IMG/VR virus record: IMGVR_UViG_3300029305_004380
Span: 2,042 to 66,041 of that record
Origin: a virus
Taxonomy: Duplodnaviria > Heunggongvirae > Uroviricota > Caudoviricetes
Length of the DNA stretch: 64,000 nucleotides
Direction: 5' to 3' (one strand)
Both the position numbers and the translations under genes were made by a program. The notes beneath the pieces were generated by a model. The model was given only the letters and a program-made list of their open reading frames with translations, ran no database searches and was not told where the DNA came from. This document shows, piece after piece, positions 11,272-57,230 of the stretch. The first letter of the stretch is position 1. Each line of letters begins with the position of its first letter.

Positions 11272-12525
11272 TCACTCCGATGACTTAAAATTATATACAG
11301 GCTTAATAAGCTTTATAATCTCTACTGTATCTTCAATATTATTTACAATATCATTAATATTCTTATATGCTTGAGGAGATTCATCGAGAGTACCTTCATT
11401 AATACATGTAGAATAAATACCTGTCATAGATTCTGCAAAATCAGAAAGACTAATAGTTTCTTTAGCTTTACCTCTACTCATTAATCTACCAGCACCATGA
11501 GGAGCTGAATTATTGTAATCCTCGTTTCCTTTACCTTTACAAATAAGAACTCCATCTCTCATATTAATAGGAATAACTAACATTTGTCCTTCATAAGCAG
11601 CGACCGCACCTTTTCTAATTATGTTATCATCTCCAATATAATTATGAATCGTATCAAACCATTCGGTCTTAATATTATATTTCCCTTTTTGTTTAATTCT
11701 TAACTTTCCACTAGTAGATAATTGAACTTGACAATCATTGAAATAATTCTTTATAAGTTCTTCAGCGATTGTAAATCTATTCAGTGCAGCGTATTTCTGA
11801 CAAATTCTCATATCATGTAAATATTTATCTTTATCTTCACCAATAAGATAAAGTAAATTTTTAGGAATCTTATCTAACTTTGACTTATAATTATTTATGG
11901 CTTCTTGAATATCAGATTCCCTTCCAGATGCTTTCATTTCTGCTATTAAGGAATTTATATTATTCTTATCTTCTTCCTTTCCAGCTTTATTTTGATAATA
12001 CTTACATACGTCTAATCCTAAATGTCTAGAACCAGTATGAATCATAAGATATTTGTTTCCTTCAAAATCTTCATCAATTTCACAAAAATGATTCCCCGAA
12101 CCAAGCGAGCCGATAGCTCTTAATACTTTATCATATTGATGTTTTACCACATCTTTATAACAATACATATTTTCAAGTTCGTCAAATTTCTTTTTCTGTT
12201 TTGAATTAACTTCAAATCCGAAAGCAACATTTTCACGAAGTATTTTATCAAATCTCTTATAATCTATATCAACATTTCCTAATGGAATTGTTAGTACACC
12301 ACAACCAATATCGACTCCAACTAAATTAGGAACTACTTTATCTCCTAAATTAGCTGTAAATCCTATAACACATCCTGCTCCAGCGTGACAATCAGGTTGA
12401 ATTCTTATTTTACAACCTTCAACAAAAGGCTGATTTAATAATTGTATTATCTGACATATACACTCATCTTCTATAACATCTGTAAATACTTTAGCAGTAC
12501 CATATTTTCCTTTAAGTTCTAACAT
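11272..12525 (-). CDS. rtcB: RtcB-family RNA 3'-phosphate/5'-OH ligase (417 aa after start trimming)
   Basis: RtcB signatures QPDCHAGAGCVIG, VGVDIGCGV and GSGNHFCEID. The start is reassigned to the ATG at 12525 (MLELKGK...), which has a GGAGG ribosome-binding site and overlaps the stop of the upstream gene. The ORF-track N-terminus at 12570 is a read-through artefact. Confidence 0.85.
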   Translation of the reverse strand: MLELKGKYGTAKVFTDVIEDECICQIIQLLNQPFVEGCKIRIQPDCHAGAGCVIGFTANLGDKVVPNLVGVDIGCGVLTIPLGNVDIDYKRFDKILRENVAFGFEVNSKQKKKFDELENMYCYKDVVKHQYDKVLRAIGSLGSGNHFCEIDEDFEGNKYLMIHTGSRHLGLDVCKYYQNKAGKEEDKNNINSLIAEMKASGRESDIQEAINNYKSKLDKIPKNLLYLIGEDKDKYLHDMRICQKYAALNRFTIAEELIKNYFNDCQVQLSTSGKLRIKQKGKYNIKTEWFDTIHNYIGDDNIIRKGAVAAYEGQMLVIPINMRDGVLICKGKGNEDYNNSAPHGAGRLMSRGKAKETISLSDFAESMTGIYSTCINEGTLDESPQAYKNINDIVNNIEDTVEIIKLIKPVYNFKSSE

Positions 12526-12526
12526 T

Positions 12527-12838
12527 TTATTCCTCCACTTTTGTAGGTTTATAAAGAGTAGCATCTTCAAGTTCTTCTAAATCGTAAATAATGCTATTAA
12601 GTTTATCTATTACAAGTTCATTAACTTTAAATCCATTTTTATCAATAATACGTTTATCATAACTTATATGATGAATAGCTTCATCTATTCGGCTATATGC
12701 TTCTTTTATTAACCCTTTATATTTTTTATTTTCATTTTCATCTCTTGGAGTTATTTCATAAGCTTTCATAATGTTAATCCTCTCTATAATAAATTCTATA
12801 ATTTTTAAATATAACTCTATTAATAAGTTTAGTCCCAA
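12527..12838 (-). CDS. hypothetical protein (103 aa)
   Basis: ORF track; its stop abuts the rtcB start. Confidence 0.5.
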   Translation of the reverse strand: MGLNLLIELYLKIIEFIIERINIMKAYEITPRDENENKKYKGLIKEAYSRIDEAIHHISYDKRIIDKNGFKVNELVIDKLNSIIYDLEELEDATLYKPTKVEE

Positions 12839-13530
12839 TATGCGTTAATATTTTCATAATCAGGATAATTTTCTTTCATATAAGCGTCTAACTTTACTCT
12901 TAAAGCATCTTTTATCTTATTATCACTGTCATAATCACCTACAGGTGGTATACACTCTGTACTAAAAATAACTATTTCACCATCTTTTACAATTCCTTGA
13001 TAATCTGAATTTTTCCACACTTCATAATCAGAACTTTCATCTGCAACACGAGTCACAATAGTTTGATATCTTGTATTAAAGTTGATAAATGCATCTCTAT
13101 CATAAAATGCAGCTTTATAAAAGAAATCTGCTCTCTTTTTTCCCTTATTGTCAAATAAATTATTCCACATTGAATGGTCCGTTGCTTCAATTTTCCAACC
13201 TTCAGGAAGTACTACATTATAAAATAAATCGTCGCACTCATCAACAATAACAATTCCCATTTTCTCATATTGTTGTCTTGTGTATTTAATGTTATTTTGC
13301 ATAATAATCTTGTGTCTTTCTTCCCATTCCATTGAATCCTCTACACCGTTCCATCTTACCTCATTTGGCAGACAAACGTCATTTAACTTCTTTGGTAGTC
13401 TTTGATTTCTTACAACTGATTGTTGACCTCTTCTTTCCTGATTTTCAATAGCTTTAGAAGGATTTTCACCTTCCATTGCATATAGTATTGCATCCATAAA
13501 AGTAATCATATTATCATTATTCATTTTCAT
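12829..13530 (-). CDS. hypothetical protein (233 aa)
   Basis: ORF track. Confidence 0.5.
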   Translation of the reverse strand: MKMNNDNMITFMDAILYAMEGENPSKAIENQERRGQQSVVRNQRLPKKLNDVCLPNEVRWNGVEDSMEWEERHKIIMQNNIKYTRQQYEKMGIVIVDECDDLFYNVVLPEGWKIEATDHSMWNNLFDNKGKKRADFFYKAAFYDRDAFINFNTRYQTIVTRVADESSDYEVWKNSDYQGIVKDGEIVIFSTECIPPVGDYDSDNKIKDALRVKLDAYMKENYPDYENINAYWD

Positions 13531-23179: not shown

Positions 23180-24181
23180 TTACTTATTGAATTTAATAGC
23201 ATTTTCATTAAATAAAGTATTATCACATTCCACAAAATAGTCAAATAGTGGTAACGCTAACTCTCTCATTTGAGGATGAGCAGCTTTGTCACATCTTAAT
23301 TCAAAGAAATGTCCCCATTCATAATTATGAGCAGTCATTATAATTTCAGTTTTTAAACTGTTACCAAGTACACTTCTAGCTTCTTGAGGAGTAGCTCCTA
23401 ATTCTAATAACTCAAAGTATGCTTTTTCTGAAGCTTTTATTGCATCTCTCCAAACATGATACTTGTTTCTTTCAACACTTTGAAGTTCTGCTTCACCATC
23501 AAACATTAATGGGTCAATCACCGTGATATTATTATCAAATTTATCTTTAGAATAATTACAATATCTTGTAGATTCTTGAGCATATGAAGAATCCCTATGT
23601 CTAACGATTTCATGTGATACACCTCTATCACAAATAAATTTAATAGATTTCCATCCGTGCATCCATTGTTCTTCTGGAATTAATGTATTAATATCATCGA
23701 TTTTAGTCCAATTATTTCTATGTACTTTTTTAAATTTATTACCAAATAATTCATCACAATCATAATCTAAGACTATTTGCTCACATAATTCAATTAAATG
23801 TTCTTTCATATAACTATTAGTCTTATAAGCTTCTAATAAATCTAAAAGAGACCTTGCGCTAAACGACAATATATATCTTAATTTTGTTTCAAAATTACCT
23901 TCATCATTACATGAAATAATTTCTGTCGTACTAGATGTTATATATTTTTCATTACTTAATATTTTAAAAAATAAATTATTAGGAGTATTACATTGATATA
24001 CAAATATAAAATGTTCTAACATCGCCCAATGTTTTTTATCATATAAATTTTTAATCATTTTTTTATGACTTTCATCAGTTATTAAATCTTCTGATTTATA
24101 ACAAATTCTTGCAATTTTTTCAATATGTTTTTGAGGATTGTCATCATACATTTCTTTAAATGACGGCTTTATAATTTTCAT
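23180..24181 (-). CDS. thyX: flavin-dependent thymidylate synthase ThyX (333 aa)
   Basis: ThyX signature RHRDSSYAQESTRY (RHR-x6-QESTRY). A GGAG ribosome-binding site is present. Confidence 0.85.
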   Translation of the reverse strand: MKIIKPSFKEMYDDNPQKHIEKIARICYKSEDLITDESHKKMIKNLYDKKHWAMLEHFIFVYQCNTPNNLFFKILSNEKYITSSTTEIISCNDEGNFETKLRYILSFSARSLLDLLEAYKTNSYMKEHLIELCEQIVLDYDCDELFGNKFKKVHRNNWTKIDDINTLIPEEQWMHGWKSIKFICDRGVSHEIVRHRDSSYAQESTRYCNYSKDKFDNNITVIDPLMFDGEAELQSVERNKYHVWRDAIKASEKAYFELLELGATPQEARSVLGNSLKTEIIMTAHNYEWGHFFELRCDKAAHPQMRELALPLFDYFVECDNTLFNENAIKFNK

Positions 24182-27232: not shown

Positions 27233-29830
27233 TTAATTTATTTTATCGATTTTGTATATATAATTATGTTTAATTTCTTTATAAATATATTTCTCTATAA
27301 TCGGATATATATATGTTTGAATATATAATAAATACAATAATTTGTAAAGTTTTTCATCACATGCATGTTCACTATAATATCTAAATTTTGAATTTCTCAT
27401 TTCATCAATAAATATATCTTTAATTTCATCATATCTTGTATGAGCAGTCTCAAAATTATTTATTACAAAACATGTAGTTTCAATAAATGTTAAAAACCAA
27501 TTTTCATTTTTAAAATCTTTATCATCAATATAAAATTCACCGTTATTCCACACATTGTGTTTTTTAGCATATGTCTTTATTTCATCTACAATATATCCTA
27601 ATTTTTTAATATCTAAAGCTTCTCGTTCATTTATTTCTTCAATTGATGTATCACTATCAAATGATTCTTCATAAAAAGATTTATCAACTTCATCATATGT
27701 TAATTCAGGATGAGTTACTAAATCACTTAATTTTGCAAATGTTCTTTTTGTAGATGGTCCACATACACATCTGATATGAGTGGCATAATATAAGTCAATG
27801 TTTAATTTATTAGGCTTTATTTTATCATAATTGTCATTAAATAAATTAGATAGTTTTAAATACTCACCGGCCATTAAATATTTAGCGAACTGTTTAGCTC
27901 GTCTGTCAGTAAAATTTCTAACATTATTAATTATTTTCCAATGTGAAATAAGTTCTTTCCAATTATATTTAGAAATATCATCTACATACTGTGTAATTAA
28001 TTGTTCTTCATAAAATTCTCTATCTGTTAAAAACTTATAAGCAATTTTAAAATATTTAATTAAATAACTATAATCTAATGATGAATAATATCCAGTTGTG
28101 CTATCTCTTGAAGAACCAAATTGACCAATCTTTTTAGTATCTATAAAATACTTCATCCATATAGAATTCATATATTCAAGATTAATAAATTCAGAAGTCT
28201 CTACTTCAAAATTAGCCTTATTTTTTCTTTCATTCCACCAATCGTCTTTTTTAACAGCTATAAAAATTCTATCATTTTCAATAAGATTAATTTTATAAAG
28301 TCCAGAAGATACTTTACAATCTCTTGTAGTATTCAATTCTCCTCGAGCTCTATTGGCACTATATGTCTTACCATTACTTTCTCGAATAGATTGAATAACT
28401 AAAATAGTATCTCCAACATGATTATATTCATTTATATTTTCTACAAAGTCGGCAAAATTTCCATATCTATTATCATCTAACCAAGCATTTGCATAATTAT
28501 GAATAATATATTTAGATGTAAATCTAATATCTACTTTTTCAGGTACAGTAAGTATTTCTCTATGTTCAATTAGTCCTTGAACTACACTTAAAGCAAAATA
28601 TCTCGAAACGGCTTCACCAATAGGAGTGTTAGGAGTTTTATCATTTTCATCTATTTGTTTTACTTCAGGTTTATATATTACATCTTCTATGAAAGATAAT
28701 TTATGCTCATCCATATCAGTTTTGTCATTATCCCATTCTTCTTCAAGCCAACCCACATATAAATTTTCACCATTTCTAACAACAAATCCAATTTTATTTC
28801 CATGCAACATATCGTATGACTCTAAAATATCATCATCACTGTTGTAAAAATAATTTTTATTTGTTTTAGAACATCTAAAAAATGATATACATTTTAGTTG
28901 AGGACAAAACATTTCCATAACGGAATCCGAATATTTAAGTACTTCTTCTAAAAGTTTATAATTGCCTTCAATATCATCAGTATATATACTCATGGTTTTA
29001 GCTAAATCTTCATTAAGATATAACATTTTTTGATTAAGCACTATAGGTGTTTCTTCTGATTCTTTTTTACCTTCTCTTAATTGAATTAATTCTACAGTTT
29101 CACCTGCAAAACATCTAATAGAATAAATGTTTGTTTTCAACATAAAGATTTGCTGTTTTAATGCTTTTAATTTTTCATTAAATTCAGCCATCTTTTCATC
29201 AAGTTCAGCTATCATTGCTTGTTTCTTAGCCTCAAGTAAATTCATCTTTTCATCTATTTCTTTTTGAATTTTGGCTAATTCATCAGTTTTAGCATTTTTT
29301 ACATTTTCTATTTGTGATTTTAAATTATCCATTAATGTTGTTACTTTCTTTTGCTCACTTTTAACATCATTAATAGATAAATTTGTAATTTCAGCCGGTA
29401 GTTTACTTTCGGTTGCAGGAGTATTTCCATTTATTAACATTCTCTTTACTTCATTTAATGAATACTGAGAATAATCTGTTTCAGGTATAAATTCAACAAA
29501 ATCTTCAAGAATAAATATAGATACTTTACCATAAGATACTACTACATATTTATCAATATGCATATCTACGTTCCATGTAAAATTATTTAATTTAATATAT
29601 GCATCTACAGTTTTAGCATTATCATATCTTAATATATTAACTCCATCTGGTTTAGAATTACAATACTGTTTATTTAATATATTATCAATTGCTTTTGAAA
29701 TAACTTGAGTATCTTTTTCATTCCATTTACCATAAAAATATTGCATATATTCATCGTTAAATTTTACAACATCAAAATTTTCAGATTGAATATACTCCAA
29801 ATATTCATTAAGTTTGATATTAGATTTCAT
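27233..29830 (-). CDS. large protein of unknown function with central coiled-coil (865 aa)
   Basis: ORF track. K/E/L heptad region around residues 150-230. No catalytic motif recognised. Confidence 0.6.
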   Translation of the reverse strand: MKSNIKLNEYLEYIQSENFDVVKFNDEYMQYFYGKWNEKDTQVISKAIDNILNKQYCNSKPDGVNILRYDNAKTVDAYIKLNNFTWNVDMHIDKYVVVSYGKVSIFILEDFVEFIPETDYSQYSLNEVKRMLINGNTPATESKLPAEITNLSINDVKSEQKKVTTLMDNLKSQIENVKNAKTDELAKIQKEIDEKMNLLEAKKQAMIAELDEKMAEFNEKLKALKQQIFMLKTNIYSIRCFAGETVELIQLREGKKESEETPIVLNQKMLYLNEDLAKTMSIYTDDIEGNYKLLEEVLKYSDSVMEMFCPQLKCISFFRCSKTNKNYFYNSDDDILESYDMLHGNKIGFVVRNGENLYVGWLEEEWDNDKTDMDEHKLSFIEDVIYKPEVKQIDENDKTPNTPIGEAVSRYFALSVVQGLIEHREILTVPEKVDIRFTSKYIIHNYANAWLDDNRYGNFADFVENINEYNHVGDTILVIQSIRESNGKTYSANRARGELNTTRDCKVSSGLYKINLIENDRIFIAVKKDDWWNERKNKANFEVETSEFINLEYMNSIWMKYFIDTKKIGQFGSSRDSTTGYYSSLDYSYLIKYFKIAYKFLTDREFYEEQLITQYVDDISKYNWKELISHWKIINNVRNFTDRRAKQFAKYLMAGEYLKLSNLFNDNYDKIKPNKLNIDLYYATHIRCVCGPSTKRTFAKLSDLVTHPELTYDEVDKSFYEESFDSDTSIEEINEREALDIKKLGYIVDEIKTYAKKHNVWNNGEFYIDDKDFKNENWFLTFIETTCFVINNFETAHTRYDEIKDIFIDEMRNSKFRYYSEHACDEKLYKLLYLLYIQTYIYPIIEKYIYKEIKHNYIYKIDKIN

Positions 29831-30178: not shown

Positions 30179-30314
30179 ATTATGATTAATATTTTTTTAA
30201 TTCTCTTTTAAGTTTATTCACTATGTTATGATTTTCTTTCTTAGGTTGTCTACTTTCTAATAATGAAATTCTATTCATAATCATTAATTTTGTTTTCATA
30301 CTTATACTCTCCTT

Positions 30315-30668
30315 TTATTCTTTATAAAAAATTAATTTATACACACAAGTATGTGTAGTTAATTTATCAATATTTATGTCTTCTATTATTAATTCTATTC
30401 CCATATCTGCATATTGTGATATGAGTATTTTACCTATCTCCAACATGATATTTTGTATATCATCTATTTTTAATCTATAATTATCCAAATTAATAGTAAA
30501 AACATATGTGATTTGTCTTGATGATTTTAGGTTTACTTCTTTTTCATAATCTATAACATATTTATTATCAACTATAAGTTGAAAATTCATAGGTATTTTT
30601 AATTTCTTAGGATTATAAAAATTTATTTGCATATTAATCATTTCTCCATTCTTCACATTTGAATCCAT
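30315..30668 (-). CDS. hypothetical protein (117 aa)
   Basis: ORF track. Confidence 0.5.
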   Translation of the reverse strand: MDSNVKNGEMINMQINFYNPKKLKIPMNFQLIVDNKYVIDYEKEVNLKSSRQITYVFTINLDNYRLKIDDIQNIMLEIGKILISQYADMGIELIIEDINIDKLTTHTCVYKLIFYKE

Positions 30669-31005
30669 TTAATCTTAACCAATTAGATACAAGATGTCTA
30701 TGACAAAAATCTTCCGATTTTTCATAACAAATTAATGCAATATCATTTGATTGTTTGTCACATAATTGTTCTAATTCCATTACCACTTCTGAGGCATCCA
30801 GATTATCCAGAATTTCTTTTTTAAATTGTTCTATATAATAACCATTATCTTTATTTTTCTTCCATTCTATAAAAAATTGATATTTAGGAGCCAATCTTTT
30901 ATATTGTAATCCATCCCACCAATCTGGAGCTTTTCCACAAATAGATATTGGAATTATATTTTTAGGTAACTTTTTTAAATTTCCAAAATAACTAGTATAT
31001 ATCAC
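30634..31005 (-). CDS. hypothetical protein (123 aa)
   Basis: ORF track; GGAG ribosome-binding site. Confidence 0.5.
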   Translation of the reverse strand: MIYTSYFGNLKKLPKNIIPISICGKAPDWWDGLQYKRLAPKYQFFIEWKKNKDNGYYIEQFKKEILDNLDASEVVMELEQLCDKQSNDIALICYEKSEDFCHRHLVSNWLRLNGFKCEEWRND

Positions 31006-31019
31006 TCATATCATCTCCT

Positions 31020-31190
31020 TTAACATATATTTAAGATAATATAACTAATTATAAATATCAATCCAGTTAGTATATATGCTCCAATTGGTAAAAATACTAA
31101 ACGTCCAAAATATGAATAATCATTTTTAAATACAAATATAAAACTTATTCCTATAATTAATAATATAACACCAAAAATTAAAATATCCAT
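31020..31190 (-). CDS. 56 aa two-TM membrane miniprotein immediately downstream of the flotillin gene
   Basis: Manual translation gives MDILIFGVILLIIGISFIFVFKNDYSYFGRLVFLPIGAYILTGLIFIISYIILNIC. Not in ORF track (under 60 aa). Confidence 0.35.
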   Translation of the reverse strand: MDILIFGVILLIIGISFIFVFKNDYSYFGRLVFLPIGAYILTGLIFIISYIILNIC

Positions 31191-31208
31191 TTCAACCCAA
31201 CTTATTTA

Positions 31209-32786
31209 TTATTCATCAATATTATCTTCAAGATATGGATTTACTACTTCAGGAAGAGATTCCTTTTCATCATTATTAATAACTGTATTATTTTCAGATG
31301 TACTTAATACACCTAAACCTTTAAGAGGTTCTGCAACTGCTTTAACGGCCTCTGAAACTGAATCATTAAATGATTTACCATTAAGAGCATTATTAGAAAC
31401 ATCTAAATGTTTCATAAGAGTAGGAATTTGTGCAAGAGTATCAAATAATACATTGTTGCCCATACCTGTTCCTGAACCACCAATGTTTACAAATTCTGCA
31501 TTCTTTCCAACTTCAGCCATTACAGTAGCCATATTTGTTGCAATCTGTACTCTTGCTTCATTTTCAATCTTAATTTTTTCAATTTCAAAATTAACCTTAC
31601 CATTTCCTGCTCTTGCTTCAGCTAATGCTTTTTCACCTTCAGCTTCGGCAAGTTTTTTCGCTTTAATTGCTTCAGCTTCTGCAATACCTTGTTTAGTAGT
31701 AATTTCAGCTTGAGTTTCACCTTCAAGTTTTATTTTATTTGCATTAGCTTGAGCTTCTCTTTCAATTGCATTTGCTTTACCAATAGCTTCTTGCTCTAAT
31801 ACTTTAGCTCTTGCTTCTGCATTAATAGTGGAAACGTTTGCTGTTTCTTGAGCTTTAATTTCCGCTTGAACTTTTTCAGCTTCAGCTCTAGTTTTAATAA
31901 CTTCCTTTTCTTTAATTGCGGCTAGATTAGCTTGTTCTTGTCTGACAACTTCAACTTTACCTTCTTGTGCAGCAACTTCTTGCATACGAATAGTTTTCTG
32001 AAGTTCACCTGCAATTGCAGCGTCTGCATTGGCTTTATCTGTTTCCGCTTTGAATTCGGCAATTTTTAAATTATTATTTTTAGTTTTTTCAGCAATTTCA
32101 AGTTCTGTATCAAGTTCACTTTGTTTAGCTATTTTTTCTGATTCTGCATTTTGTTGTCTGATTTGCTGATCAGCCATAGCTCTTACTTGTTCAGCTTCTT
32201 TTCTCTTTTCTTCTCTATCTTTAGCAGCAATATCTTCATAATAACCATTGTTATCTGTAACTTCACCTATATTAAGTGAGATTAATTTAAGACCCATATC
32301 TTTAAGTTCATCTGCAACAGCTTCTTGCACCGTTTGTTTAAACTGTTCTTTTTTAGTAGCTACTTCTTCTGGAGTCATAGTTGCAACAGTGCCAAGTACA
32401 CATCCAGCCAATGTTCTTTTAACATCTTCTTTAATACCATCACTTTTACGTTCTTTAAAAGATACTATTGCTTTAGCAAGAACTTCAGTATCAGATGAAT
32501 CAGGTCTAATTTGAGCAGTCCAATTAATAACGATAGGTACACCTGTCTTTGTCATAATTTCATCTTTATCAGCTGTAACAGTTAACATACATAAATCGAA
32601 TGTATCTGCTCTTCTAAAAATAGGAATTACAAGTCCACCTCCAGAAACTTTATAGATAGGCTCTTTTCCGCCTGTTATTATTAATACTTTATCTACAGGC
32701 ACTGTTTTATATATTTTACAAAGTAAAATAATAAAAGCCACAATAAATAAAATTATTACCCCACCGATTATTAAATATTTTTCCAT
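31209..32786 (-). CDS. flotillin-like SPFH/band-7 protein, FloT-like (525 aa)
   Basis: N-terminal TM helix, an SPFH domain (VPVDKVLIITGG...IPIFRRADTFDL...) and a long Ala/Glu-rich coiled-coil flotillin domain. An AAGGAG ribosome-binding site is present. Local GC is visibly higher than the surrounding sequence. Confidence 0.8.
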   Translation of the reverse strand: MEKYLIIGGVIILFIVAFIILLCKIYKTVPVDKVLIITGGKEPIYKVSGGGLVIPIFRRADTFDLCMLTVTADKDEIMTKTGVPIVINWTAQIRPDSSDTEVLAKAIVSFKERKSDGIKEDVKRTLAGCVLGTVATMTPEEVATKKEQFKQTVQEAVADELKDMGLKLISLNIGEVTDNNGYYEDIAAKDREEKRKEAEQVRAMADQQIRQQNAESEKIAKQSELDTELEIAEKTKNNNLKIAEFKAETDKANADAAIAGELQKTIRMQEVAAQEGKVEVVRQEQANLAAIKEKEVIKTRAEAEKVQAEIKAQETANVSTINAEARAKVLEQEAIGKANAIEREAQANANKIKLEGETQAEITTKQGIAEAEAIKAKKLAEAEGEKALAEARAGNGKVNFEIEKIKIENEARVQIATNMATVMAEVGKNAEFVNIGGSGTGMGNNVLFDTLAQIPTLMKHLDVSNNALNGKSFNDSVSEAVKAVAEPLKGLGVLSTSENNTVINNDEKESLPEVVNPYLEDNIDE

Positions 32787-32986
32787 AATTTATTAATCTC
32801 CTTTTTATGTAACATATTTTTTAGTAACATCAACACCATTATCAAAAATGATATAATCTTTACTTTTGACAATTGTTTTAAATAAATTTATATCTTCGTA
32901 GTTTTGTTTGCATTTTAAATTAGTTAACTCATATTCTTTATAATAAATTTCAAATCTAAATTTTTCCACAACTAATATCTCCTAAT

Positions 32987-33262
32987 TTAATCTATAAAAT
33001 CATGTATCATCTCAATATAAGGTAATGTGCAATTACAAACATTTATGGAATGTTTATTATATTGTTCACACCCTATACAACACTTAGGAGTTTCGCCTGT
33101 ATGCAAATATGAATTATTATTTAAAGGAATAAAATTGTCATTTATTGTTTTGATAATTTTAACTGAATAATCTATTAACAATTGCTTTTCATTTTCCGTT
33201 TTATTGACTAATTCTTCATTTAAAGTTATTAAAATTTTATCTTTTACTTCATTAATATTCAT
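32987..33262 (-). CDS. small Cys-rich protein (91 aa)
   Basis: ORF track; CCIGCEQ...CNC motif. Confidence 0.45.
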   Translation of the reverse strand: MNINEVKDKILITLNEELVNKTENEKQLLIDYSVKIIKTINDNFIPLNNNSYLHTGETPKCCIGCEQYNKHSINVCNCTLPYIEMIHDFID

Positions 33263-33265
33263 AAA

Positions 33266-33535
33266 TTAAATTCCTTTTACTTTTATATATTTATTAAAAT
33301 TTTCATCTACATCAAAATGAGATTTTGCATCAAATTTAATATGATTCAATAACATACTTATTAATTCTCTTGCAATTACTTCACCATTAGGTATAGCTTT
33401 ATAACTATATATTGTCTCATCATCGACATTAATATAATATTCACATTCGCCAATTGTCAAATAAATTCTTTTTATTTTAAAAATATTTATAGCGCTGAGT
33501 CCATTATTATAAATCAAATATGAATTTTCAAACAA
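33266..33535 (-). CDS. hypothetical protein (89 aa)
   Basis: ORF track. Confidence 0.45.
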   Translation of the reverse strand: MFENSYLIYNNGLSAINIFKIKRIYLTIGECEYYINVDDETIYSYKAIPNGEVIARELISMLLNHIKFDAKSHFDVDENFNKYIKVKGI

Positions 33536-35097: not shown

Positions 35098-35186
35098 TGG
35101 TGCAAGAGAAGGGATTCGAACCCTCAATTCCTCACGGACGACGGATTTTAAGTCCGTTGCATATACCAAAATTCTGCCACTCTTGC
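35098..35186 (-). tRNA. tRNA-Leu (anticodon UAA), type II with long variable arm, CCA encoded
   Basis: Manual cloverleaf. Acceptor GCAAGAG/CTCTTGC, 3 bp D-stem, anticodon stem ACGGA/TCCGT, loop CT-TAA-AA, 15 nt variable arm, T-arm GAGGG-TTCGAAT-CCCTT, discriminator A, CCA. Length 89 nt. Confidence 0.85.
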
Positions 35187-35359: not shown

Positions 35360-35433
35360 TGGCTGGGGTAAATGGAATCGAACCAATACTCTAAGAATCA
35401 AAATCTTATGTACTACCGTTATACTATACCCCA
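35360..35433 (-). tRNA. tRNA-Gln (anticodon UUG), CCA encoded
   Basis: Manual cloverleaf. Acceptor TGGGGTA/TACCCCA, D-stem GTAT/GTAC, anticodon stem TAAGA/TCTTA, loop TT-TTG-AT, T-loop TTCGATT, discriminator G, CCA. Length 74 nt. Confidence 0.8.
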
Positions 35434-36854: not shown

Positions 36855-38135
36855 TTACACGTTTATATAATTATTTTTAGCATCTTCTAATAATTGACCA
36901 TCTCTCCAAATATTAAAACAATGATTTTCAGTGAGATCAATAATATTCTTATTTTTAAATTGTTCTCTTACTTTTCTCCAATTTATACCTACATTATCTA
37001 AACCTCTTTGATGAATCCATTTAATATATTCTATATGACCAAAATTATTTTTCATTTCCTGTTGTTGCTGAGTAAATCTTTCTTGAATACTATCAAAATT
37101 CATAGTACCCATTGCAACTGAACTGTATGTCATCCATCTAAATTCACAATTTATAAGACCTGCTTCTAATCCTCTAATAAGTAAATCTAAATCATCATGT
37201 CCATTGCCTATAAGAGTTCTATAATTTAAACCAGACTCTTTAAGTCTCTTTAAATTTAAACAAACAGTTCCTGTAGGAAGTCCTGATAATAATCTCATTG
37301 ATTTTTCTACATTTATAAAATCAGGAACCCAACTAAATCCTTGCATCATACCTGTGGTAAACATCACATTATATTTTTTAGCAACATATTCCATACCAAT
37401 CTGCCACATTGCCATAGTTTTTCCAAAGTTTTGTGTAGTAACTCCTTGAGCTTTTGGTTCACCATTTGCTCTAAACCAAGGAACCGTATGACAAAAATTA
37501 GTAATATCATCGTCACACATAAATATAAAATCATATTTCTTAGAAAAAGCATTTACAATTTGTTCTCTAGTTTTTCCAATGTCATCTATTAATTCATCAG
37601 GAAATGCTTTTATATGTATATAATCATTATATTTTATATACTCTGATGCTTCATACAGTTCTTTTTGAGATTGTCTCACAATAATATAAATTGGATATTC
37701 ATAACCAGGAACAACTATGTCTTTAATCCATTTTACAAAACCACAATTAGGTCTATTATATGATGGAATTACTATAGGGAATAATCTATCCTTTACAATA
37801 TCATACGCTGCTTCATAAAGTTTGTTACTCCAACAATCAACTGCTAATAGCTCTTCAGTTGTAACTTTCGGAGCTTTAACTCTTGGAGTTTTTTCATATT
37901 TCATTTTTTTACCTTCAATATATTGCTCTAAAGATATATTTTTTTTATTTAATTCATCTTTTAATTTTATTACCTCCTCCCAACATTTTTTACACTTTTC
38001 ATCGACACAATCATTACATTCTTTATCACAATTTATAACCGCTTCAACATATGAACTCATGTTTGAAATATTTTTAGGACATTTAAATTCATTTGCTAAA
38101 ACATTTAATATTGTGTCAGTTTTTAATTTTGCCAT
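36855..38135 (-). CDS. putative glycosyltransferase (GT-A-like) with N-terminal Cys-rich zinc-binding region (426 aa)
   Basis: PIVIPSYNRP resembles the GT2 N-terminal strand motif. An acidic DDD (FMCDDDITNF) lies about 85 residues downstream, as a DxD motif would. N-terminal CxxC-x-CxxC cluster. This is a tentative fold assignment. Confidence 0.35.
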   Translation of the reverse strand: MAKLKTDTILNVLANEFKCPKNISNMSSYVEAVINCDKECNDCVDEKCKKCWEEVIKLKDELNKKNISLEQYIEGKKMKYEKTPRVKAPKVTTEELLAVDCWSNKLYEAAYDIVKDRLFPIVIPSYNRPNCGFVKWIKDIVVPGYEYPIYIIVRQSQKELYEASEYIKYNDYIHIKAFPDELIDDIGKTREQIVNAFSKKYDFIFMCDDDITNFCHTVPWFRANGEPKAQGVTTQNFGKTMAMWQIGMEYVAKKYNVMFTTGMMQGFSWVPDFINVEKSMRLLSGLPTGTVCLNLKRLKESGLNYRTLIGNGHDDLDLLIRGLEAGLINCEFRWMTYSSVAMGTMNFDSIQERFTQQQQEMKNNFGHIEYIKWIHQRGLDNVGINWRKVREQFKNKNIIDLTENHCFNIWRDGQLLEDAKNNYINV

Positions 38136-41857: not shown

Positions 41858-43159
41858 TTAAAAATCAATATTTCTATCTTTAAGTGATTTTTTTATTAAA
41901 TATTTTCTATTAGATAATTGTTTAGGTGTTATATTTAATGTTCCACATATAGTATCAACATCATACGTATTACAATCGTTTAGAAATTGTTTTAATCCTT
42001 CTATGTCATCATATTTAATAGTTGGCTGCCAGTTCTTTGGTCTTTTACCTTTTTTCTTATTTTTATCAGAGACTAATAGTTTATCATTATTCATTTCATT
42101 TTTAGTGTCTACCTCTGGTTTATTTTTTTCGTTATCTATTAAATCTTTATAATTAATACCTTTTCTTTTTAAAAATGATTGTATTGCACTTTTTTTATCA
42201 TAAAGTTTTTGAATATTTTCTAAGTTGTATTTTTTCATACAAGATGCTTTACTCATACTATAATAATCTTTTATAAATTGTGTTGAAAATTCAATTGTAT
42301 ATCTTACCGTGTTTGCTTTTCTATTATCTTTTTTCTCAATATCTTCTTCTTTGATTGCTTCATTTGAAGATTTAATTGATTGTTCAAATATATTTTTCGC
42401 AGGAGTTAATGTATTTCCAATAGATTTGTATAAATATATTAAAGAATTTAAAATATCATCTAATTTTTTAGAATTAGCAACATATAAATCTTTTACTATT
42501 TTTAAATCCTCATGAAATGAAACGGTTGACTTATTTGTTTCATCTATCATTGATTTTAAGTTGGTTATATTATCATTTGTGGTTATAAACTTATTTTGTA
42601 TGTCTGTAAAAGAATTAATATAATTAACAGTGTCTCTACTATTCACATTGTTAACGTGTTCTTCATATTTAGTAAATTTATCTTCAATATATTTATCAAA
42701 CTTAGCAGTTTTTTGTTTGATAATTAAATTTAAAGTAGATTCCAGTTTATTTAAAAAATCAAGAGAAGATAATTCCCGTTCTGATATATTTAAATCAAAT
42801 TCTACAGCAAGGGCTATATCTATTTTTTTCATAACTAATTCAGATAATCTACCTATATATTCACCTAAATCATGTTTATTAATACACCTACATTGTTCTA
42901 ATAAAATTACTTGCGGTCTACCTTCAAATTCATAATAAACTTGATATGGTCCTACTGAAGATTTAGGTCTGGTGGTTATAGGAGCTATAGTTACTACATC
43001 ACCTTTTTTATTTCCTATATCATTTGATATAATAACTACTGGTCTTTTTTTACCTTCAATTCTATTAGGTTGTATATCTCCTAAATCATAATAATAAACA
43101 TTTCCTCTACTAAATACGTCCAACATTAATCTTTCTCCTTTGTATAACAATTTATCCAT
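41858..43159 (-). CDS. MazF/PemK/EndoA-family endoribonuclease domain fused to about 300 aa C-terminal extension (433 aa)
   Basis: Residues about 15-125 match the EndoA/MazF family closely: RGNVYYYDLG...GKKRPVVIISNDIGN...VAPIT...VILLEQCRCINK...KIDIALAVEF. The rest is coiled-coil, Lys-rich, with a possible C-terminal HTH. Confidence 0.7.
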   Translation of the reverse strand: MDKLLYKGERLMLDVFSRGNVYYYDLGDIQPNRIEGKKRPVVIISNDIGNKKGDVVTIAPITTRPKSSVGPYQVYYEFEGRPQVILLEQCRCINKHDLGEYIGRLSELVMKKIDIALAVEFDLNISERELSSLDFLNKLESTLNLIIKQKTAKFDKYIEDKFTKYEEHVNNVNSRDTVNYINSFTDIQNKFITTNDNITNLKSMIDETNKSTVSFHEDLKIVKDLYVANSKKLDDILNSLIYLYKSIGNTLTPAKNIFEQSIKSSNEAIKEEDIEKKDNRKANTVRYTIEFSTQFIKDYYSMSKASCMKKYNLENIQKLYDKKSAIQSFLKRKGINYKDLIDNEKNKPEVDTKNEMNNDKLLVSDKNKKKGKRPKNWQPTIKYDDIEGLKQFLNDCNTYDVDTICGTLNITPKQLSNRKYLIKKSLKDRNIDF

Positions 43160-49524: not shown

Positions 49525-50451
49525 TTAATGAATAAATTTACTAACATTCATGTTATTTAACATATATATTAGTTCTTCATTTTTTAATAGTTTATTATCC
49601 AAAATTTCATTTTTAGATTTATTACTTAAAATATCAAAATCATGCATTATTTCACTTAATATGTCTCTATAATTTCTATCATCATAATATTCAAAATAAT
49701 ATATATCTTCTTTTCCTTTTTTATATATTTCATTCATAGTTGTAATATATTTTTCATTATCTGTTATAAAATTTTCTTTATAACAATGCAAACTACCGAA
49801 TAGATGCGTATAAGTTCCCATTTCAACATTCAATTCTTTTGCCATCATCATTTGCCAAATAATAAATTGTGTCATATCATTAGGTAATCCGAACCAAATA
49901 TCACAACTTCTCATATACACAATACAATTTAATTTATTATCTCTAAGTAAAAATTGTATTGATGATGTACAAGGAGTATCATCATCTTGTCTATGCTTCA
50001 TTATAGGTATTTGCCAAATAGCTTGTCTAGAATATGGGTCTCTTTTTAATAATTCAACTGTTGCATCAAAAACTGTTAATTCTGGATTTTTATTATCTTT
50101 TTGAACAAATATATAATGTCCATAATTAGAATTAACAAGACCTTTTTCATCACCATCTTTATTAACTAAATCGTTCCAAATATTTGCAGGTGCATCTTTC
50201 ACATCTCTACTTCCATTTAAATACCACATGCATTCTTTTGCAAGATAAATAGGACTTAACTTTCTAATAGGTGACCACATTAAACAATTTTGTGGTTCCA
50301 ATATTCTAAACCCAATACCTACACTTTCATTAGTAACTCTACCACGAGCACATGAATTATAGAAATTATCAATAGAATGATCAACGTCGGTGTGTCCTAA
50401 TTCATCATATAATACACTCCAAGCTTCTACTGCAGTTTTAAAATTATACAT
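49525..50451 (-). CDS. ThyA-family pyrimidine C5-hydroxymethylase/methylase with dCMP-hydroxymethylase-type active site (308 aa)
   Basis: Whole-length ThyA-fold match (NSNYG, YMRSCDIWFG). The catalytic Cys is in PCT rather than PCH. The ThyA Asn177 position is Asp (LPNDMTQF versus ThyA LPFNIASY). That is the substitution that distinguishes dCMP hydroxymethylase from thymidylate synthase. Confidence 0.7.
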   Translation of the reverse strand: MYNFKTAVEAWSVLYDELGHTDVDHSIDNFYNSCARGRVTNESVGIGFRILEPQNCLMWSPIRKLSPIYLAKECMWYLNGSRDVKDAPANIWNDLVNKDGDEKGLVNSNYGHYIFVQKDNKNPELTVFDATVELLKRDPYSRQAIWQIPIMKHRQDDDTPCTSSIQFLLRDNKLNCIVYMRSCDIWFGLPNDMTQFIIWQMMMAKELNVEMGTYTHLFGSLHCYKENFITDNEKYITTMNEIYKKGKEDIYYFEYYDDRNYRDILSEIMHDFDILSNKSKNEILDNKLLKNEELIYMLNNMNVSKFIH

Positions 50452-56513: not shown

Positions 56514-57230
56514 TTAATATGCATATAATTCATACAGAAGATCTTTTATATCTTGTCGAATCAACGTGGTGCAATTATCTGTTGCTCTCATGCCTAAACA
56601 TTTATAAACAGCATTATATGTGAATTTTGTCATGCTATCCAGAATGCCTCTTTTTTCATCATCGAGTGAATTATAAAATTCATTATAAATGCTTCTTATC
56701 TTTGTAGATGGACCATCAAACTCTTTAATGTACCGCGTTGCGATAAGATATTTAACTTTATTATCAAAAATATCATCTAATAATTCTTCTAATGATATTC
56801 TTAATATAATACTGTCTGTTTCATTTAATTTATGAGAAGATGCTTTATATTCTATTTTTTGTTTTTCAGTGTTTAATGCTGAAGTATATCCTCTATCATG
56901 ACCGTTAAATATTTCAGTACTAAAATCATCAATATTTTCCATTTGTTTAGATACGTACATGCATTTTGCAAGTATTGCATTTTGTGCAACTCTTATTAAA
57001 TAAGAAAGTTCTAATTCATTTCCTCTTAGTTTATATTTATCAATCGCTTCATATATTTTAAGCCAAGCTTCTTGTTTTAAATCATCGACTTGAAAATACG
57101 GATTTGTTGCTACATATTTTAATGCTATATTATTTATAACTTGATTAAGCTTTCTATGCACCTCCTTATTATATACTCCATCTAATGTAATTAATACATT
57201 ATTTTTGTTTACTTTTGTAGTGGTTTCCAT
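56514..57230 (-). CDS. phage-encoded sigma-70-family sigma factor (238 aa)
   Basis: The region-2-like segment DDLKQEAWLKIYEAIDKYK...YLIRVAQNAI resembles sigma-70 region 2.1-2.4. Its position between the structural and replication modules is typical of a late or middle sigma factor. Confidence 0.55.
   Translation of the reverse strand: METTTKVNKNNVLITLDGVYNKEVHRKLNQVINNIALKYVATNPYFQVDDLKQEAWLKIYEAIDKYKLRGNELELSYLIRVAQNAILAKCMYVSKQMENIDDFSTEIFNGHDRGYTSALNTEKQKIEYKASSHKLNETDSIILRISLEELLDDIFDNKVKYLIATRYIKEFDGPSTKIRSIYNEFYNSLDDEKRGILDSMTKFTYNAVYKCLGMRATDNCTTLIRQDIKDLLYELYAY

What the first reader, a model, noticed from the sequence alone, without database searches (positions are those of the whole stretch)
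31020..32786. Flotillin (FloT-like SPFH) gene with a companion two-TM miniprotein in a phage, with a locally elevated GC content
The 525 aa protein has the full bacterial flotillin architecture: an N-terminal TM helix, an SPFH domain and a long A/E-rich coiled-coil. It is followed by a 56 aa double-TM miniprotein that could be NfeD-like. Flotillins organise functional membrane microdomains in Firmicutes. A phage copy could remodel membrane domains for assembly, lysis timing or superinfection exclusion. The visibly higher GC of this gene relative to its neighbours suggests recent capture from a host.
Basis: partly seen in the sequence, partly recalled or inferred. Interest (0 to 1): 0.6.

Follow-up and report, generated by a model that had tools for sequence, protein, structure and literature searches.

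The report
Old flotillin gene in gut phage
A large uncultured gut phage carries an intact bacterial-type flotillin (membrane-scaffold) gene that its lineage has kept under selection for a long time; it is not a recent theft from the host, and the small membrane protein next to it is not the usual flotillin partner.

Summary
Two minus-strand ORFs sit exactly at 31209-32786 (525 aa) and 31020-31190 (56 aa). The large one is a true flotillin-type SPFH protein: Pfam Band_7 8e-23, end-to-end match to the FloT profile, and human flotillin-1/2 as best solved-structure matches. The window is the replication region of a large uncultured phage.

- Recent capture: the raised GC (0.327 vs 0.256) lies wholly in codon position 1, from an Ala/Glu/Lys-rich protein. 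GC3 is 0.108 vs 0.134. GC expected from the amino-acid sequence is 0.323, and synonymous codon use is typical (z -0.6). The gene is shared by a monophyletic phage clade (bootstrap 96), with dS 0.65-0.9 and dN/dS about 0.2. The nearest chromosomal copies (Lachnospiraceae MAGs) are only 68% identical.
- NfeD-like companion: the miniprotein gives no NfeD hit even at E<=10 and is too short for NfeD's soluble domain. Its family has five members among 5.8 billion proteins, all in the closest phages. Relatives with 75% identical flotillins lack it. In L055 a scan-confirmed terminator separates it from the flotillin.

Flotillins also occur in other large gut-phage lineages, so exchange is recurrent. 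Phage SPFH genes are already annotated elsewhere, with no known function. Verdict: new member of a known kind, moderate interest.

The parts
31209..32786 (-). Flotillin (FloT-type SPFH) gene, 525 aa
   Evidence: ORF. Pfam Band_7 8.4e-23. FloT profile 190 bits over aa 7-445. Family profile vs PDB: flotillin-1 1.6e-41, flotillin-2 3.9e-30. Foldseek top hits are flotillin-1/2. 818 homologues at E<=1e-10. Keeps 145 of 156 family-conserved positions.
32712..32783 (-). N-terminal membrane anchor (aa 2-25, YLIIGGVIILFIVAFIILLCKIY)
   Evidence: Hydrophobic segment scored as one TM. Helix 2-25 in the model, pLDDT 76-80. It is the least conserved region against the nearest cellular copy, 40% identity.
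32169..32705 (-). SPFH / Band 7 domain (aa 28-206)
   Evidence: Pfam PF01145 covers profile positions 2-175 of 176. Superposes on the mouse flotillin-2 Band 7 domain 1win at 1.9 A over 122 columns.
31503..32243 (-). Ala/Glu/Lys-rich coiled-coil region (aa 182-428), two long helices
   Evidence: Helices 182-294 and 305-428. Aligns with the coiled-coil wall of flotillin-1. This composition produces the high first-position GC.
31212..31502 (-). C-terminal region (aa 429-525): conserved GKNAEFVNIGG and ALNG...P.KG motifs, then a variable acidic tail
   Evidence: Alignment A1. Low model confidence. By analogy with flotillin-1/2, where the C-terminus stabilises oligomerisation (PMC11260169); this is inferred, not shown.
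31191..31208 (-). 18-nt flotillin-miniprotein spacer; in relatives this position carries a hairpin plus T-run
   Evidence: Alignment A3 shows a GC-rich hairpin plus T-run after the flotillin stop in L055, L056, L057 and L015 but not in the window. Only L055 was run through the terminator scan, which reports a 13-bp stem at L055 9603-9634. No terminator-like site on the minus strand of window 30200-33400.
31020..31190 (-). 56-aa two-TM miniprotein, specific to this lineage
   Evidence: ORF with two hydrophobic segments. Homologues of 56-58 aa at 27-53% identity in the same slot in L055, L056, L137 and P0124. Only 5 family members among 5.8 billion proteins. No Pfam, PHROG, NCBIfam or PADLOC hit.
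30634..31005 (-). DUF488-N3a gene (123 aa), the conserved downstream neighbour; starts 14 nt after the miniprotein stop
   Evidence: Pfam PF22751 5.8e-16 and phrog_2450 3.5e-30. Follows the flotillin (with or without the miniprotein) in L015, L055, L057, L137 and L139-142.

Best explanation
The 525-aa gene encodes an intact flotillin of the family found in gut and rumen Clostridia. It is carried as a long-standing accessory gene by a clade of large, very AT-rich, uncultured phages.

Shown: it has every part of a flotillin, namely an N-terminal membrane anchor, an SPFH domain, about 250 residues of Ala/Glu/Lys-rich coiled coil, and a conserved C-terminal region. It keeps 145 of the 156 positions that are at least 95% conserved in 110 other family members. 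Within the phage clade it evolves under purifying selection. Its codon usage is that of the phage.

Inferred from the flotillin-1/2 and HflK/C structures: after insertion by the N-terminal helix, many copies assemble side by side through the coiled coils and C-termini. They form a dome or cage on the cytoplasmic face of the host membrane and fence off a membrane patch.

Inferred from where the gene sits: it lies among replication and nucleotide-metabolism genes, so it is probably expressed before late structural genes.

Most likely role (inference): to supply or boost the host's flotillin scaffold during infection. In Bacillus subtilis the amount of flotillin controls membrane fluidity, cell-wall synthesis and FtsH protease activity. 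Extra flotillin could therefore keep the membrane working, or retune it, until lysis.

The 56-aa two-TM protein is a separate, fast-evolving small membrane protein inserted between the flotillin and DUF488 genes in only the closest phages. It is not NfeD and is not a general flotillin partner. In this window, loss of the intervening terminator probably makes flotillin, miniprotein and DUF488 one transcript.
For: Identity.

Intactness: 145 of 156 conserved positions kept, changes mostly conservative; conserved along the full length.

Selection and age: dN/dS 0.18-0.29, dS 0.65-0.9 among phage copies; pS 0.73 against the nearest cellular copy; phage clade bootstrap 96.

Composition: GC1 0.536, GC3 0.108, expected GC 0.323 vs 0.328 observed, codon z -0.59; in L001, L055 and L056 the flotillin's GC3 also matches its neighbours'.

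Phage setting: UvsX-like recombinase, primase, gp46/47-like nuclease, SSB, NAD ligase, helicase, thymidylate synthases, RtcB, TAGT; tRNAs; UvsX closest to Clostridium phages, 40%; relatives on 37-226 kb contigs of small co-oriented genes.

Cellular family: (Clostridia MAGs; LepA, Maf, SpoIID and MatE as neighbours).

Recurrence in other phage lineages.

Miniprotein.

Biology of flotillins: PMC11260169 (cage), PMC3892786 (overproduction stabilises FtsH and alters division), PMC7360373 (fluidity and peptidoglycan synthesis).
Against: No experiment exists and the phage is uncultured. Expression timing, membrane localisation and oligomeric state are all inferred. The AlphaFold monomer is only moderately confident (mean pLDDT 63, pTM 0.33), and no multimer was modelled. 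The FloT equivalog cut-off is not reached (190 vs 700 bits), so function cannot be carried over from B. subtilis FloT with confidence. No capsid or terminase gene lies in the window, so 'phage' rests on replication genes and on relatives. The direction of transfer is unresolved: chromosomal Lachnospiraceae copies nest between two phage groups, with only 68% bootstrap. NJ trees on 508 columns are coarse. The 'supports host membrane function' role has no better support than other membrane roles.
Confidence: 0.7

Rival explanations
1. Recent capture: the flotillin was picked up recently from the current host, and its higher GC is the host's compositional signature.
For: Gene GC 0.327 against a window mean of 0.256, rank 2 of 54. 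The family is clearly cellular in origin.
Against: The excess GC is all at codon position 1. GC3 is 0.108, below the mean of 0.134. Expected GC from amino-acid content is 0.323 and codon choice is typical. The gene is shared by six related phage contigs whose copies differ by dS 0.65-0.9. The best cellular match is 68% identical with GC3 0.32. Caveat: if the true host is itself about 25% GC, composition alone could not detect a transfer. The phylogeny and divergence would still argue against a recent one.
Confidence: 0.04
2. Two-gene module: flotillin and the two-TM miniprotein work together as an SPFH-NfeD-like pair, with the miniprotein as a minimal membrane partner held inside or next to the cage.
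For: The miniprotein always lies immediately after the flotillin in the five genomes that have it. In the window the two genes are 18 nt apart with no terminator. SPFH-NfeD complexes are a known theme (8z5g QmcA-YbbJ appears).
Against: No NfeD match at E<=10. 56 aa with two TM segments leaves no room for a soluble domain. The miniprotein is missing from L015 and L057, which keep the same flotillin-DUF488 synteny. It is missing from 54 further loci by tblastn. Only 1 of the other 47 loci with a complete flotillin has any two-TM ORF downstream. No NfeD among the recurrent families of 148 neighbours. In L055 a scan-confirmed terminator lies between the flotillin and the miniprotein, and the alignment shows a matching hairpin plus T-run in L056; in both, the miniprotein abuts DUF488 instead. 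It evolves much faster (27-53% identity) than the flotillin (79-83%) across the same genomes.
Confidence: 0.07
3. Phage-specific repurposing: the cage has been co-opted for a viral task. Examples are sequestering a holin or FtsH to set lysis timing, excluding superinfecting phages at the membrane, or anchoring replication or assembly complexes.
For: Flotillins are kept in several unrelated large-phage lineages, which argues for a benefit to the virus. The Vi01-like phage PhiSH19 lists an SPFH gene immediately before a 'superinfection exclusion protein' in its gene table (PMC3220722). HflK/C cages enclose FtsH (PMC11260169). The window subclade has its own SPFH-domain substitutions: L124R, R131L, Q174G.
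Against: No defence or exclusion model matches. There is no conserved phage partner gene, and the neighbours differ between lineages. The protein is nearly unchanged at family-conserved positions, so nothing in the sequence points to a new activity. The gene is not next to any lysis gene identified here.
Confidence: 0.2
4. Not a phage gene at all: the window is a piece of bacterial chromosome, plasmid or mis-assembled contig, and the flotillin is simply the bacterium's own.
For: No capsid, tail or terminase gene was identified in the 64 kb. Many homologues are deposited as parts of bacterial MAGs. The window's own lineage was not found in IMG/VR.
Against: All 54 ORFs of at least 120 aa are on one strand. 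The window has a T4-type replication and recombination set plus TAGT and tRNAs. No cellular housekeeping gene turned up among about 30 proteins scanned. Relatives lie on 37-226 kb contigs with the same architecture. GC of 25% is far below the chromosomal loci that carry the closest cellular flotillins, 40-44%.
Confidence: 0.03

Closest known systems
Bacillus subtilis FloT (YuaG) and the NCBIfam FloT family NF058507
   Same: Same domain order and similar length. The profile alignment covers aa 7-445 of the protein and positions 2-443 of 477 in the model. N-terminal membrane anchor, SPFH domain, Glu/Ala-rich coiled coil.
   Different: Scores 190 bits against an equivalog cut-off of 700, so it is a distant relative and not an equivalog. 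B. subtilis floT lies in an operon with an nfeD gene (own knowledge). This family shows no recurrent NfeD neighbour. This copy is carried by a phage.
Chromosomal flotillins of gut/rumen Clostridia (e.g. Lachnospiraceae MAG SVFC01000003.1, locus L058)
   Same: 68% identical over the full length and the closest cellular sequences found. Stand-alone gene next to housekeeping genes such as LepA.
   Different: Resident genome GC is 40-44% and flotillin GC3 0.32-0.39, against 25% and 0.108 in the window. Synonymous sites are saturated between them. The membrane anchor is only 40% identical.
Human flotillin-1/flotillin-2 cage (PDB 9bq2, 9l3g)
   Same: Best solved-structure match by sequence profile (1.6e-41) and by fold (E 1.7e-12 over about 410 columns). 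Same SPFH, coiled-coil and C-terminal plan.
   Different: 22-24% identity. The human proteins attach by lipidation and hydrophobic loops and form a 22+22 hetero-oligomer (PMC11260169). The phage protein has a true N-terminal hydrophobic helix and no paralogue in the window, so it would have to form a homo-oligomer or mix with the host flotillin.
SPFH/flotillin genes already annotated in cultured phages: Vibrio phage KIT04 'flotillin family protein' (473 aa), PhiSH19 SPFH protein (263 aa), Xanthomonas phage X1, Gibbsiella phage GIB1
   Same: Large virulent phages that carry an SPFH-family membrane protein of unknown role.
   Different: KIT04's protein is only 23% identical. The others are shorter stomatin- or HflK-like or lipoprotein forms from Proteobacteria phages. 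None belongs to this Clostridia family. No function has been shown for any of them.
NfeD proteins (partners of SPFH proteins, e.g. YbbJ in the QmcA-YbbJ complex, PDB 8z5g)
   Same: Small membrane protein encoded beside an SPFH gene.
   Different: The miniprotein has no NfeD domain, has no soluble domain, lies downstream and not upstream, and is not conserved with the flotillin.

Membership tests
SPFH / Band 7 superfamily | SPFH domain detected above the curated threshold | tested here: met
   PF01145 at 81.8 bits against a cut-off of 23.6, E 8.4e-23, profile 2-175 of 176. The SPFH core superposes on 1win at 1.9 A.
Flotillin subfamily (as opposed to stomatin, prohibitin, HflK/C) | Closest solved and profile relatives are flotillins, and a long coiled-coil 'flotillin' region follows the SPFH domain | tested here: met
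   The family profile hits only flotillin-1/2 at E<=1e-3. Foldseek ranks flotillins first over more than 400 columns, with prohibitin, stomatin and HflK/C matching only 150-250 columns. Helices 182-294 and 305-428.
Flotillin subfamily | Membrane attachment element at the N-terminus | tested here: met
   Hydrophobic helix aa 2-25. Actual insertion into the membrane was not tested.
Flotillin subfamily | Assembly into a large membrane-bound oligomer (cage) and localisation to discrete membrane foci | not testable with these tools
   Only a monomer model was made. This needs a multimer prediction, cryo-EM or microscopy.
FloT equivalog (NCBIfam NF058507) | Score at or above the curated equivalog cut-off (700 bits) | tested here: not met
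   190 bits. Same architecture, but not an equivalog of B. subtilis FloT.
NfeD family (for the 56-aa miniprotein) | NfeD domain (soluble beta-barrel C-terminal to the membrane segments) | tested here: not met
   No NfeD hit for the window, L055 or L056 miniproteins even at E<=10.
NfeD family (for the 56-aa miniprotein) | Conserved operon partnership with the SPFH gene | tested here: not met
   Present in 5 closely related genomes only. Absent from L015 and L057 and from 54 other loci. NfeD is not among the recurrent families of 148 flotillin neighbours. A scan-confirmed terminator lies between the genes in L055, with a matching hairpin plus T-run visible in the L056 alignment.
Class II holin (considered for the miniprotein) | Two TM segments plus a charged hydrophilic C-terminal tail, encoded next to an endolysin | tested here: not met
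   Two TM segments are present, but the protein ends ...YIILNIC with no charged tail. Its neighbours are the flotillin and DUF488, not a lysin.
Recently transferred (compositionally foreign) gene | Third-position GC or synonymous codon usage deviating from the resident genome | tested here: not met
   GC3 z -0.97. Residual GC +0.004, rank 17 of 54. Codon likelihood z -0.59, rank 18 of 54.
Known anti-phage defence or exclusion proteins | Match to a PADLOC model | tested here: not met
   No hit for the flotillin or the miniprotein at E<=0.01.

The most novel reading that the evidence does not exclude
Flotillin cages are a recurrent, selected tool of large phages of gut Clostridia. Several unrelated jumbo-phage lineages have each acquired and kept one. 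The cage may do something specific for the virus at the host membrane, such as corralling FtsH or a lysis or exclusion factor, and not merely top up a host function. In the window's subclade, the fast-evolving two-TM miniprotein, now fused into the same transcript by loss of a terminator, could be a client of that cage.
Probability: 0.15. Interest if true: 0.65.

Novelty: new member of a known kind. Interest (0 to 1): 0.36.

Why it matters
Bacterial flotillins are established organisers of membrane fluidity and of membrane protein complexes. SPFH genes have been noted in several phage genomes without any explanation. This case adds a well-defined example: a full-length flotillin conserved under purifying selection across a clade of large gut phages, with further flotillin-carrying phage lineages in the same ecosystem. 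That makes 'what does a virus gain from a membrane-cage protein?' a concrete question with many natural sequence variants to compare. It is also a useful caution: a GC bump in an AT-rich genome can come purely from an Ala/Glu/Gly-rich protein and says nothing about recent transfer.

Tried and rejected
1. Megablast of the region against 50,697 phage records found nothing, so there is no cultured relative.

2. The viral-contig scan with patterns from the single protein gave 14 pattern matches, none confirmed. It was repeated successfully with alignment A1.

3. Looking up the window's own flotillin in the contig index returned 'not on record', so the full 114.6-kb contig could not be fetched.

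4. The first NJ tree placed L015, L058, L060, L078 and L089 outside the outgroup. My ORF picker had taken LepA or the 864-aa gene instead of the flotillin. That tree is discarded; selection was redone by BLASTP and the tree rebuilt.

5. The sigma-70 promoter scan was uninformative in this AT-rich DNA: 26 sites against 22.2 +/- 5.5 expected.

6. I tried to use the four extra contigs holding the identical 56-aa protein to look for synonymous-only variation. Their DNA is identical or nearly so (0-3 mismatches in about 900 nt), so they say nothing about selection.

7. Phage Perkons looked like a precedent for a phage flotillin but is not. It integrates into the host floA gene.

8. PADLOC: no defence model matched the flotillin or the miniprotein.

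9. A holin reading of the miniprotein was rejected: no charged tail and no lysin neighbour.

10. dN/dS for the miniprotein was not attempted, because 27-53% identity over 56 codons is saturated.
Full report
**1. What is in the sequence**

The window is 25.4% GC, and all 54 ORFs of at least 120 aa lie on the minus strand. The finding's coordinates hold exactly two minus-strand ORFs: 31209-32786 (525 aa) and 31020-31190 (56 aa), separated by 18 nt. A 123-aa ORF (30634-31005) starts 14 nt further on.

The 525-aa protein matches Pfam Band_7/SPFH at 8.4e-23, far above the gathering score, across nearly the whole profile. It aligns end to end with NCBI's FloT model (aa 7-445) at 190 bits, well below the 700-bit equivalog cut-off. 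A profile of 32 family members finds only flotillin-1 (1.6e-41) and flotillin-2 (3.9e-30) among solved structures. It does not find HflK/C, stomatin or prohibitin at E<=1e-3.

An AlphaFold model has modest confidence (mean pLDDT 63), as expected for a subunit of a large assembly. It shows an N-terminal helix (2-25), an alpha/beta SPFH core (68-177), two very long helices (182-294, 305-428) and C-terminal helices. Foldseek ranks the flotillin-1/2 cage chains first over more than 400 columns. The SPFH core fits the mouse flotillin-2 Band 7 domain at 1.9 A. The protein is 12.6% Ala, 12.2% Glu and 10.1% Lys.

**2. Is it in a phage?**

The window encodes these functions:
- a UvsX-like recombinase, a primase, and a gp46/gp47-type SbcCD nuclease pair;
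- a gp32-like SSB, a UvsW-type helicase, an exonuclease and an NAD-dependent ligase;
- two thymidylate-synthase-like proteins, RtcB and a DNA methyltransferase;
- a TET-associated glycosyltransferase, a MazF-domain protein and two tRNAs.

None of the roughly 30 proteins scanned was a cellular housekeeping protein. The nearest cultured relatives of the recombinase are Clostridium phages at 40% identity. There is no nucleotide match in 50,697 phage records. Relatives lie on 37-226 kb contigs with the same architecture of small, co-oriented genes. No virion gene lies inside this window, so 'large uncultured phage' is a strong inference and not a demonstration.

**3. The GC claim**

The gene's GC is high: 0.327 against 0.256 +/- 0.031, rank 2 of 54. 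The excess sits at codon position 1 (0.536, z 3.4), with a little at position 2. GC3 is 0.108, below the mean of 0.134.

Using the other 53 genes' synonymous codon frequencies, the GC expected from the flotillin's amino-acid sequence is 0.323, against 0.328 observed. That residual ranks 17 of 54. The likelihood of its synonymous codon choices is typical, at z -0.59 against simulation, rank 18 of 54. Across all genes, amino-acid content predicts GC with r = 0.95.

The 'visible' GC bump is therefore the footprint of GCN, GAR, GGN and GTN codons in an Ala/Glu/Gly/Val-rich protein. It is not a foreign signature. The real codon outliers in the window are RtcB (z -4.0) and two unknown ORFs.

**4. 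Age and origin**

The protein database holds 818 homologues at E<=1e-10. The best 120 are 55-83% identical, and nearly all come from metagenomes. I collected about 130 loci from viral, metagenome and genome collections.

All 77 genome hits are gut or rumen Clostridia MAGs. Several are clearly chromosomal. L058 (Lachnospiraceae, 68% identical) is flanked by LepA and a Crp-type regulator. L083 has Maf and SpoIID, and others have MatE transporters. Resident GC in the family ranges from 25% to 62%.

An NJ tree (508 columns, 118 sequences, 200 bootstraps, rooted with Vibrio phage KIT04) shows the following:
- The window groups with L055 and L056 (bootstrap 100).
- That group joins L057/L015 (72) and then L001 (96), forming a low-GC phage clade.
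- The sister group is the chromosomal Lachnospiraceae/Lachnobacterium trio, but with only 68% support.
- A second phage-like contig (L003/4) sits below them (84).

Within the phage clade dN/dS is 0.18-0.29 with dS 0.65-0.9. Against L058, synonymous sites are saturated at pS 0.73. NG86 on such AT-biased genes tends to understate dS, so the verdict of purifying selection is conservative. In L001, L055 and L056 the flotillin's GC3 again equals that of its neighbours. The window's protein keeps 145 of 156 positions that are at least 95% conserved in 110 other members.

Together these results show an old, functional, fully ameliorated phage gene. The direction of the phage-Lachnospiraceae exchange cannot be decided from this tree.

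**5. Other phage lineages**

Flotillins also occur on IMG/VR contigs of 54-320 kb and similar metagenome contigs. These fall elsewhere in the tree, among chromosomal sequences. L034, for example, joins a Ruminococcus clade at 95%.

Their flanks are phage-like. L005, L007 and L013 have NadV immediately upstream. L007 and L020 share phrog_33734. L034 has a phage NAD ligase and a ParB-HNH protein. The neighbouring genes differ between lineages. Exchange of this gene between Clostridia and their large phages has therefore happened more than once.

**6. The miniprotein**

The miniprotein has two hydrophobic segments and a KNDYSYFGR loop. It gives no hit in Pfam, NCBIfam, PHROGs or PADLOC. At E<=10 it gives only generic TM noise and no NfeD.

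A profile search of 5.8 billion proteins finds five members, all 56-58 aa and 27-53% identical. Wherever context is available, the gene sits in the slot between the flotillin and DUF488.

The next-closest syntenic phages, L015 and L057 (flotillin 75% identical), go straight from flotillin to DUF488. tblastn finds the miniprotein in none of 54 loci. Only 1 of the other 47 loci with a complete flotillin has any two-TM ORF downstream. Among 148 nearest neighbours of the flotillin across about 90 loci, no family recurs more than four times, and NfeD is not among the recurrent ones.

In the alignment, relatives L055, L056, L057 and L015 carry a GC-rich hairpin plus T-run right after the flotillin stop. 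The terminator scan, run on L055 only, reports a 13-bp stem there. In L055 and L056 the miniprotein is therefore transcriptionally tied to DUF488. The window has lost this hairpin, so here the three genes probably form one transcript.

The miniprotein is thus a real gene, judged by intact, diverged homologues with conserved topology. It is young, fast-evolving and lineage-specific. It is not NfeD-like and not a general companion of the flotillin.

**7. How it most likely works**

Shown: an intact flotillin under purifying selection in a phage.

Inferred from structures of flotillin-1/2 (a 44-subunit cone on the membrane, PMC11260169) and HflK/C (a 24-mer cage around FtsH, summarised in the same paper): the protein inserts by its N-terminal helix. 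It then oligomerises through its coiled coils and C-terminus into a dome on the cytoplasmic face of the membrane, fencing off a membrane patch.

Inferred from B. subtilis: flotillin dosage affects membrane fluidity and peptidoglycan synthesis (PMC7360373). Overproduction stabilises FtsH and alters division (PMC3892786).

My preferred reading is that the phage supplies extra or replacement flotillin, from a gene block otherwise devoted to DNA metabolism, to keep or retune host membrane organisation during infection. A virus-specific use of the cage, such as lysis timing, exclusion or anchoring, is not excluded. Nothing found here supports it either: there is no defence-model match, no conserved partner gene and no remodelling of conserved residues.

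**8. Comparison and novelty**

SPFH or flotillin genes are already annotated in cultured phages:
- Vibrio phage KIT04, a 473-aa 'flotillin family protein', 23% identical;
- the Vi01-like phage PhiSH19;
- Xanthomonas phage X1;
- Gibbsiella phage GIB1, whose authors write that the reason for its presence 'remains unclear'.

None has a demonstrated role. The present gene is a new member of this known kind, from a Clostridia-specific flotillin family. The added observations are clade-wide conservation and recurrence across gut-phage lineages. Interest is moderate. The two eye-catching parts of the original interpretation, recent capture and an NfeD-like partner, do not survive testing.

Noticed in passing
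window 11272-12570 (-); also 56514-57230 and 12829-13530: RtcB tRNA-splicing ligase (phrog_1075, 3e-123) has the most atypical synonymous codon usage in the window (z -4.0). Two ORFs with no family hit follow at z -3.3 and -3.0. These, not the flotillin, are the candidates for more recent acquisition.
   Followed up: partly
window 41858-43159 (-): A 433-aa protein with an N-terminal PemK/MazF toxin domain (Pfam 3e-20) and a long unknown C-terminal extension, sitting beside the gp46/gp47-like nuclease genes. A toxin-domain fusion is unusual in a virulent-type phage.
   Followed up: no
window 36855-38135 (-), 23180-24181 (-), 49525-50451 (-): A TET-associated glycosyltransferase (PF20691) plus two thymidylate-synthase-like ORFs. 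This hints at hypermodified, glycosylated DNA bases in this phage.
   Followed up: no
window 30634-31005 (-): A DUF488-N3a protein is the conserved downstream neighbour of the flotillin slot in this phage clade. It has weak hits to the PADLOC candidate-defence models PDC-M19A and PDC-M45C (4.5e-07, 1e-05).
   Followed up: partly
window 27233-29830 (-): An 865-aa protein with a central coiled coil and no family match. It is 87% identical in L015, far better conserved than the flotillin (75%) between the same two phages.
   Followed up: partly
window 35098-35186 and 35360-35433 (-): Two phage tRNA genes, Leu(TAA) and Gln(TTG). Both read A-ending codons, which are favoured in this 25% GC genome.
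   Followed up: no
L005 2463-4037, L007 3527-5032, L013 5593-7110: A second lineage of large gut phages (IMG/VR contigs, 36-41% GC) carries its flotillin just downstream of a NadV nicotinamide phosphoribosyltransferase. L007 and L020 also share a 739-749-aa phrog_33734 protein downstream.
   Followed up: partly
L037-L049 and L093-L131 (flotillins 47-53% identical to the window's): In a clade of low-GC (27-33%) Clostridia loci the flotillin has GC3 of 0.26-0.42, while neighbouring genes have 0.12-0.19. This is a genuine third-position anomaly, unlike the window's. It might reflect high expression or real transfer. Unexplained.
   Followed up: no
L003 9600-14000: About 4.4 kb downstream of the flotillin on a 215-kb phage-like contig has no called gene and only short ORFs. 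It may be a tRNA or structured-RNA array. Not scanned.
   Followed up: no
L015 7123-7653: The closest flotillin-carrying relative that lacks the miniprotein has a 176-aa three-TM protein two genes upstream of its flotillin. The window has no counterpart. Small membrane proteins seem to come and go around this slot.
   Followed up: no
L139-L142 (JGI samples 3300032167, 3300024270, 3300018475; ENA ERZ27302307): DNA identical or nearly identical to the window (0-3 mismatches in about 900 nt) recurs in at least four independent metagenome samples. This exact phage strain is therefore widespread.
   Followed up: partly
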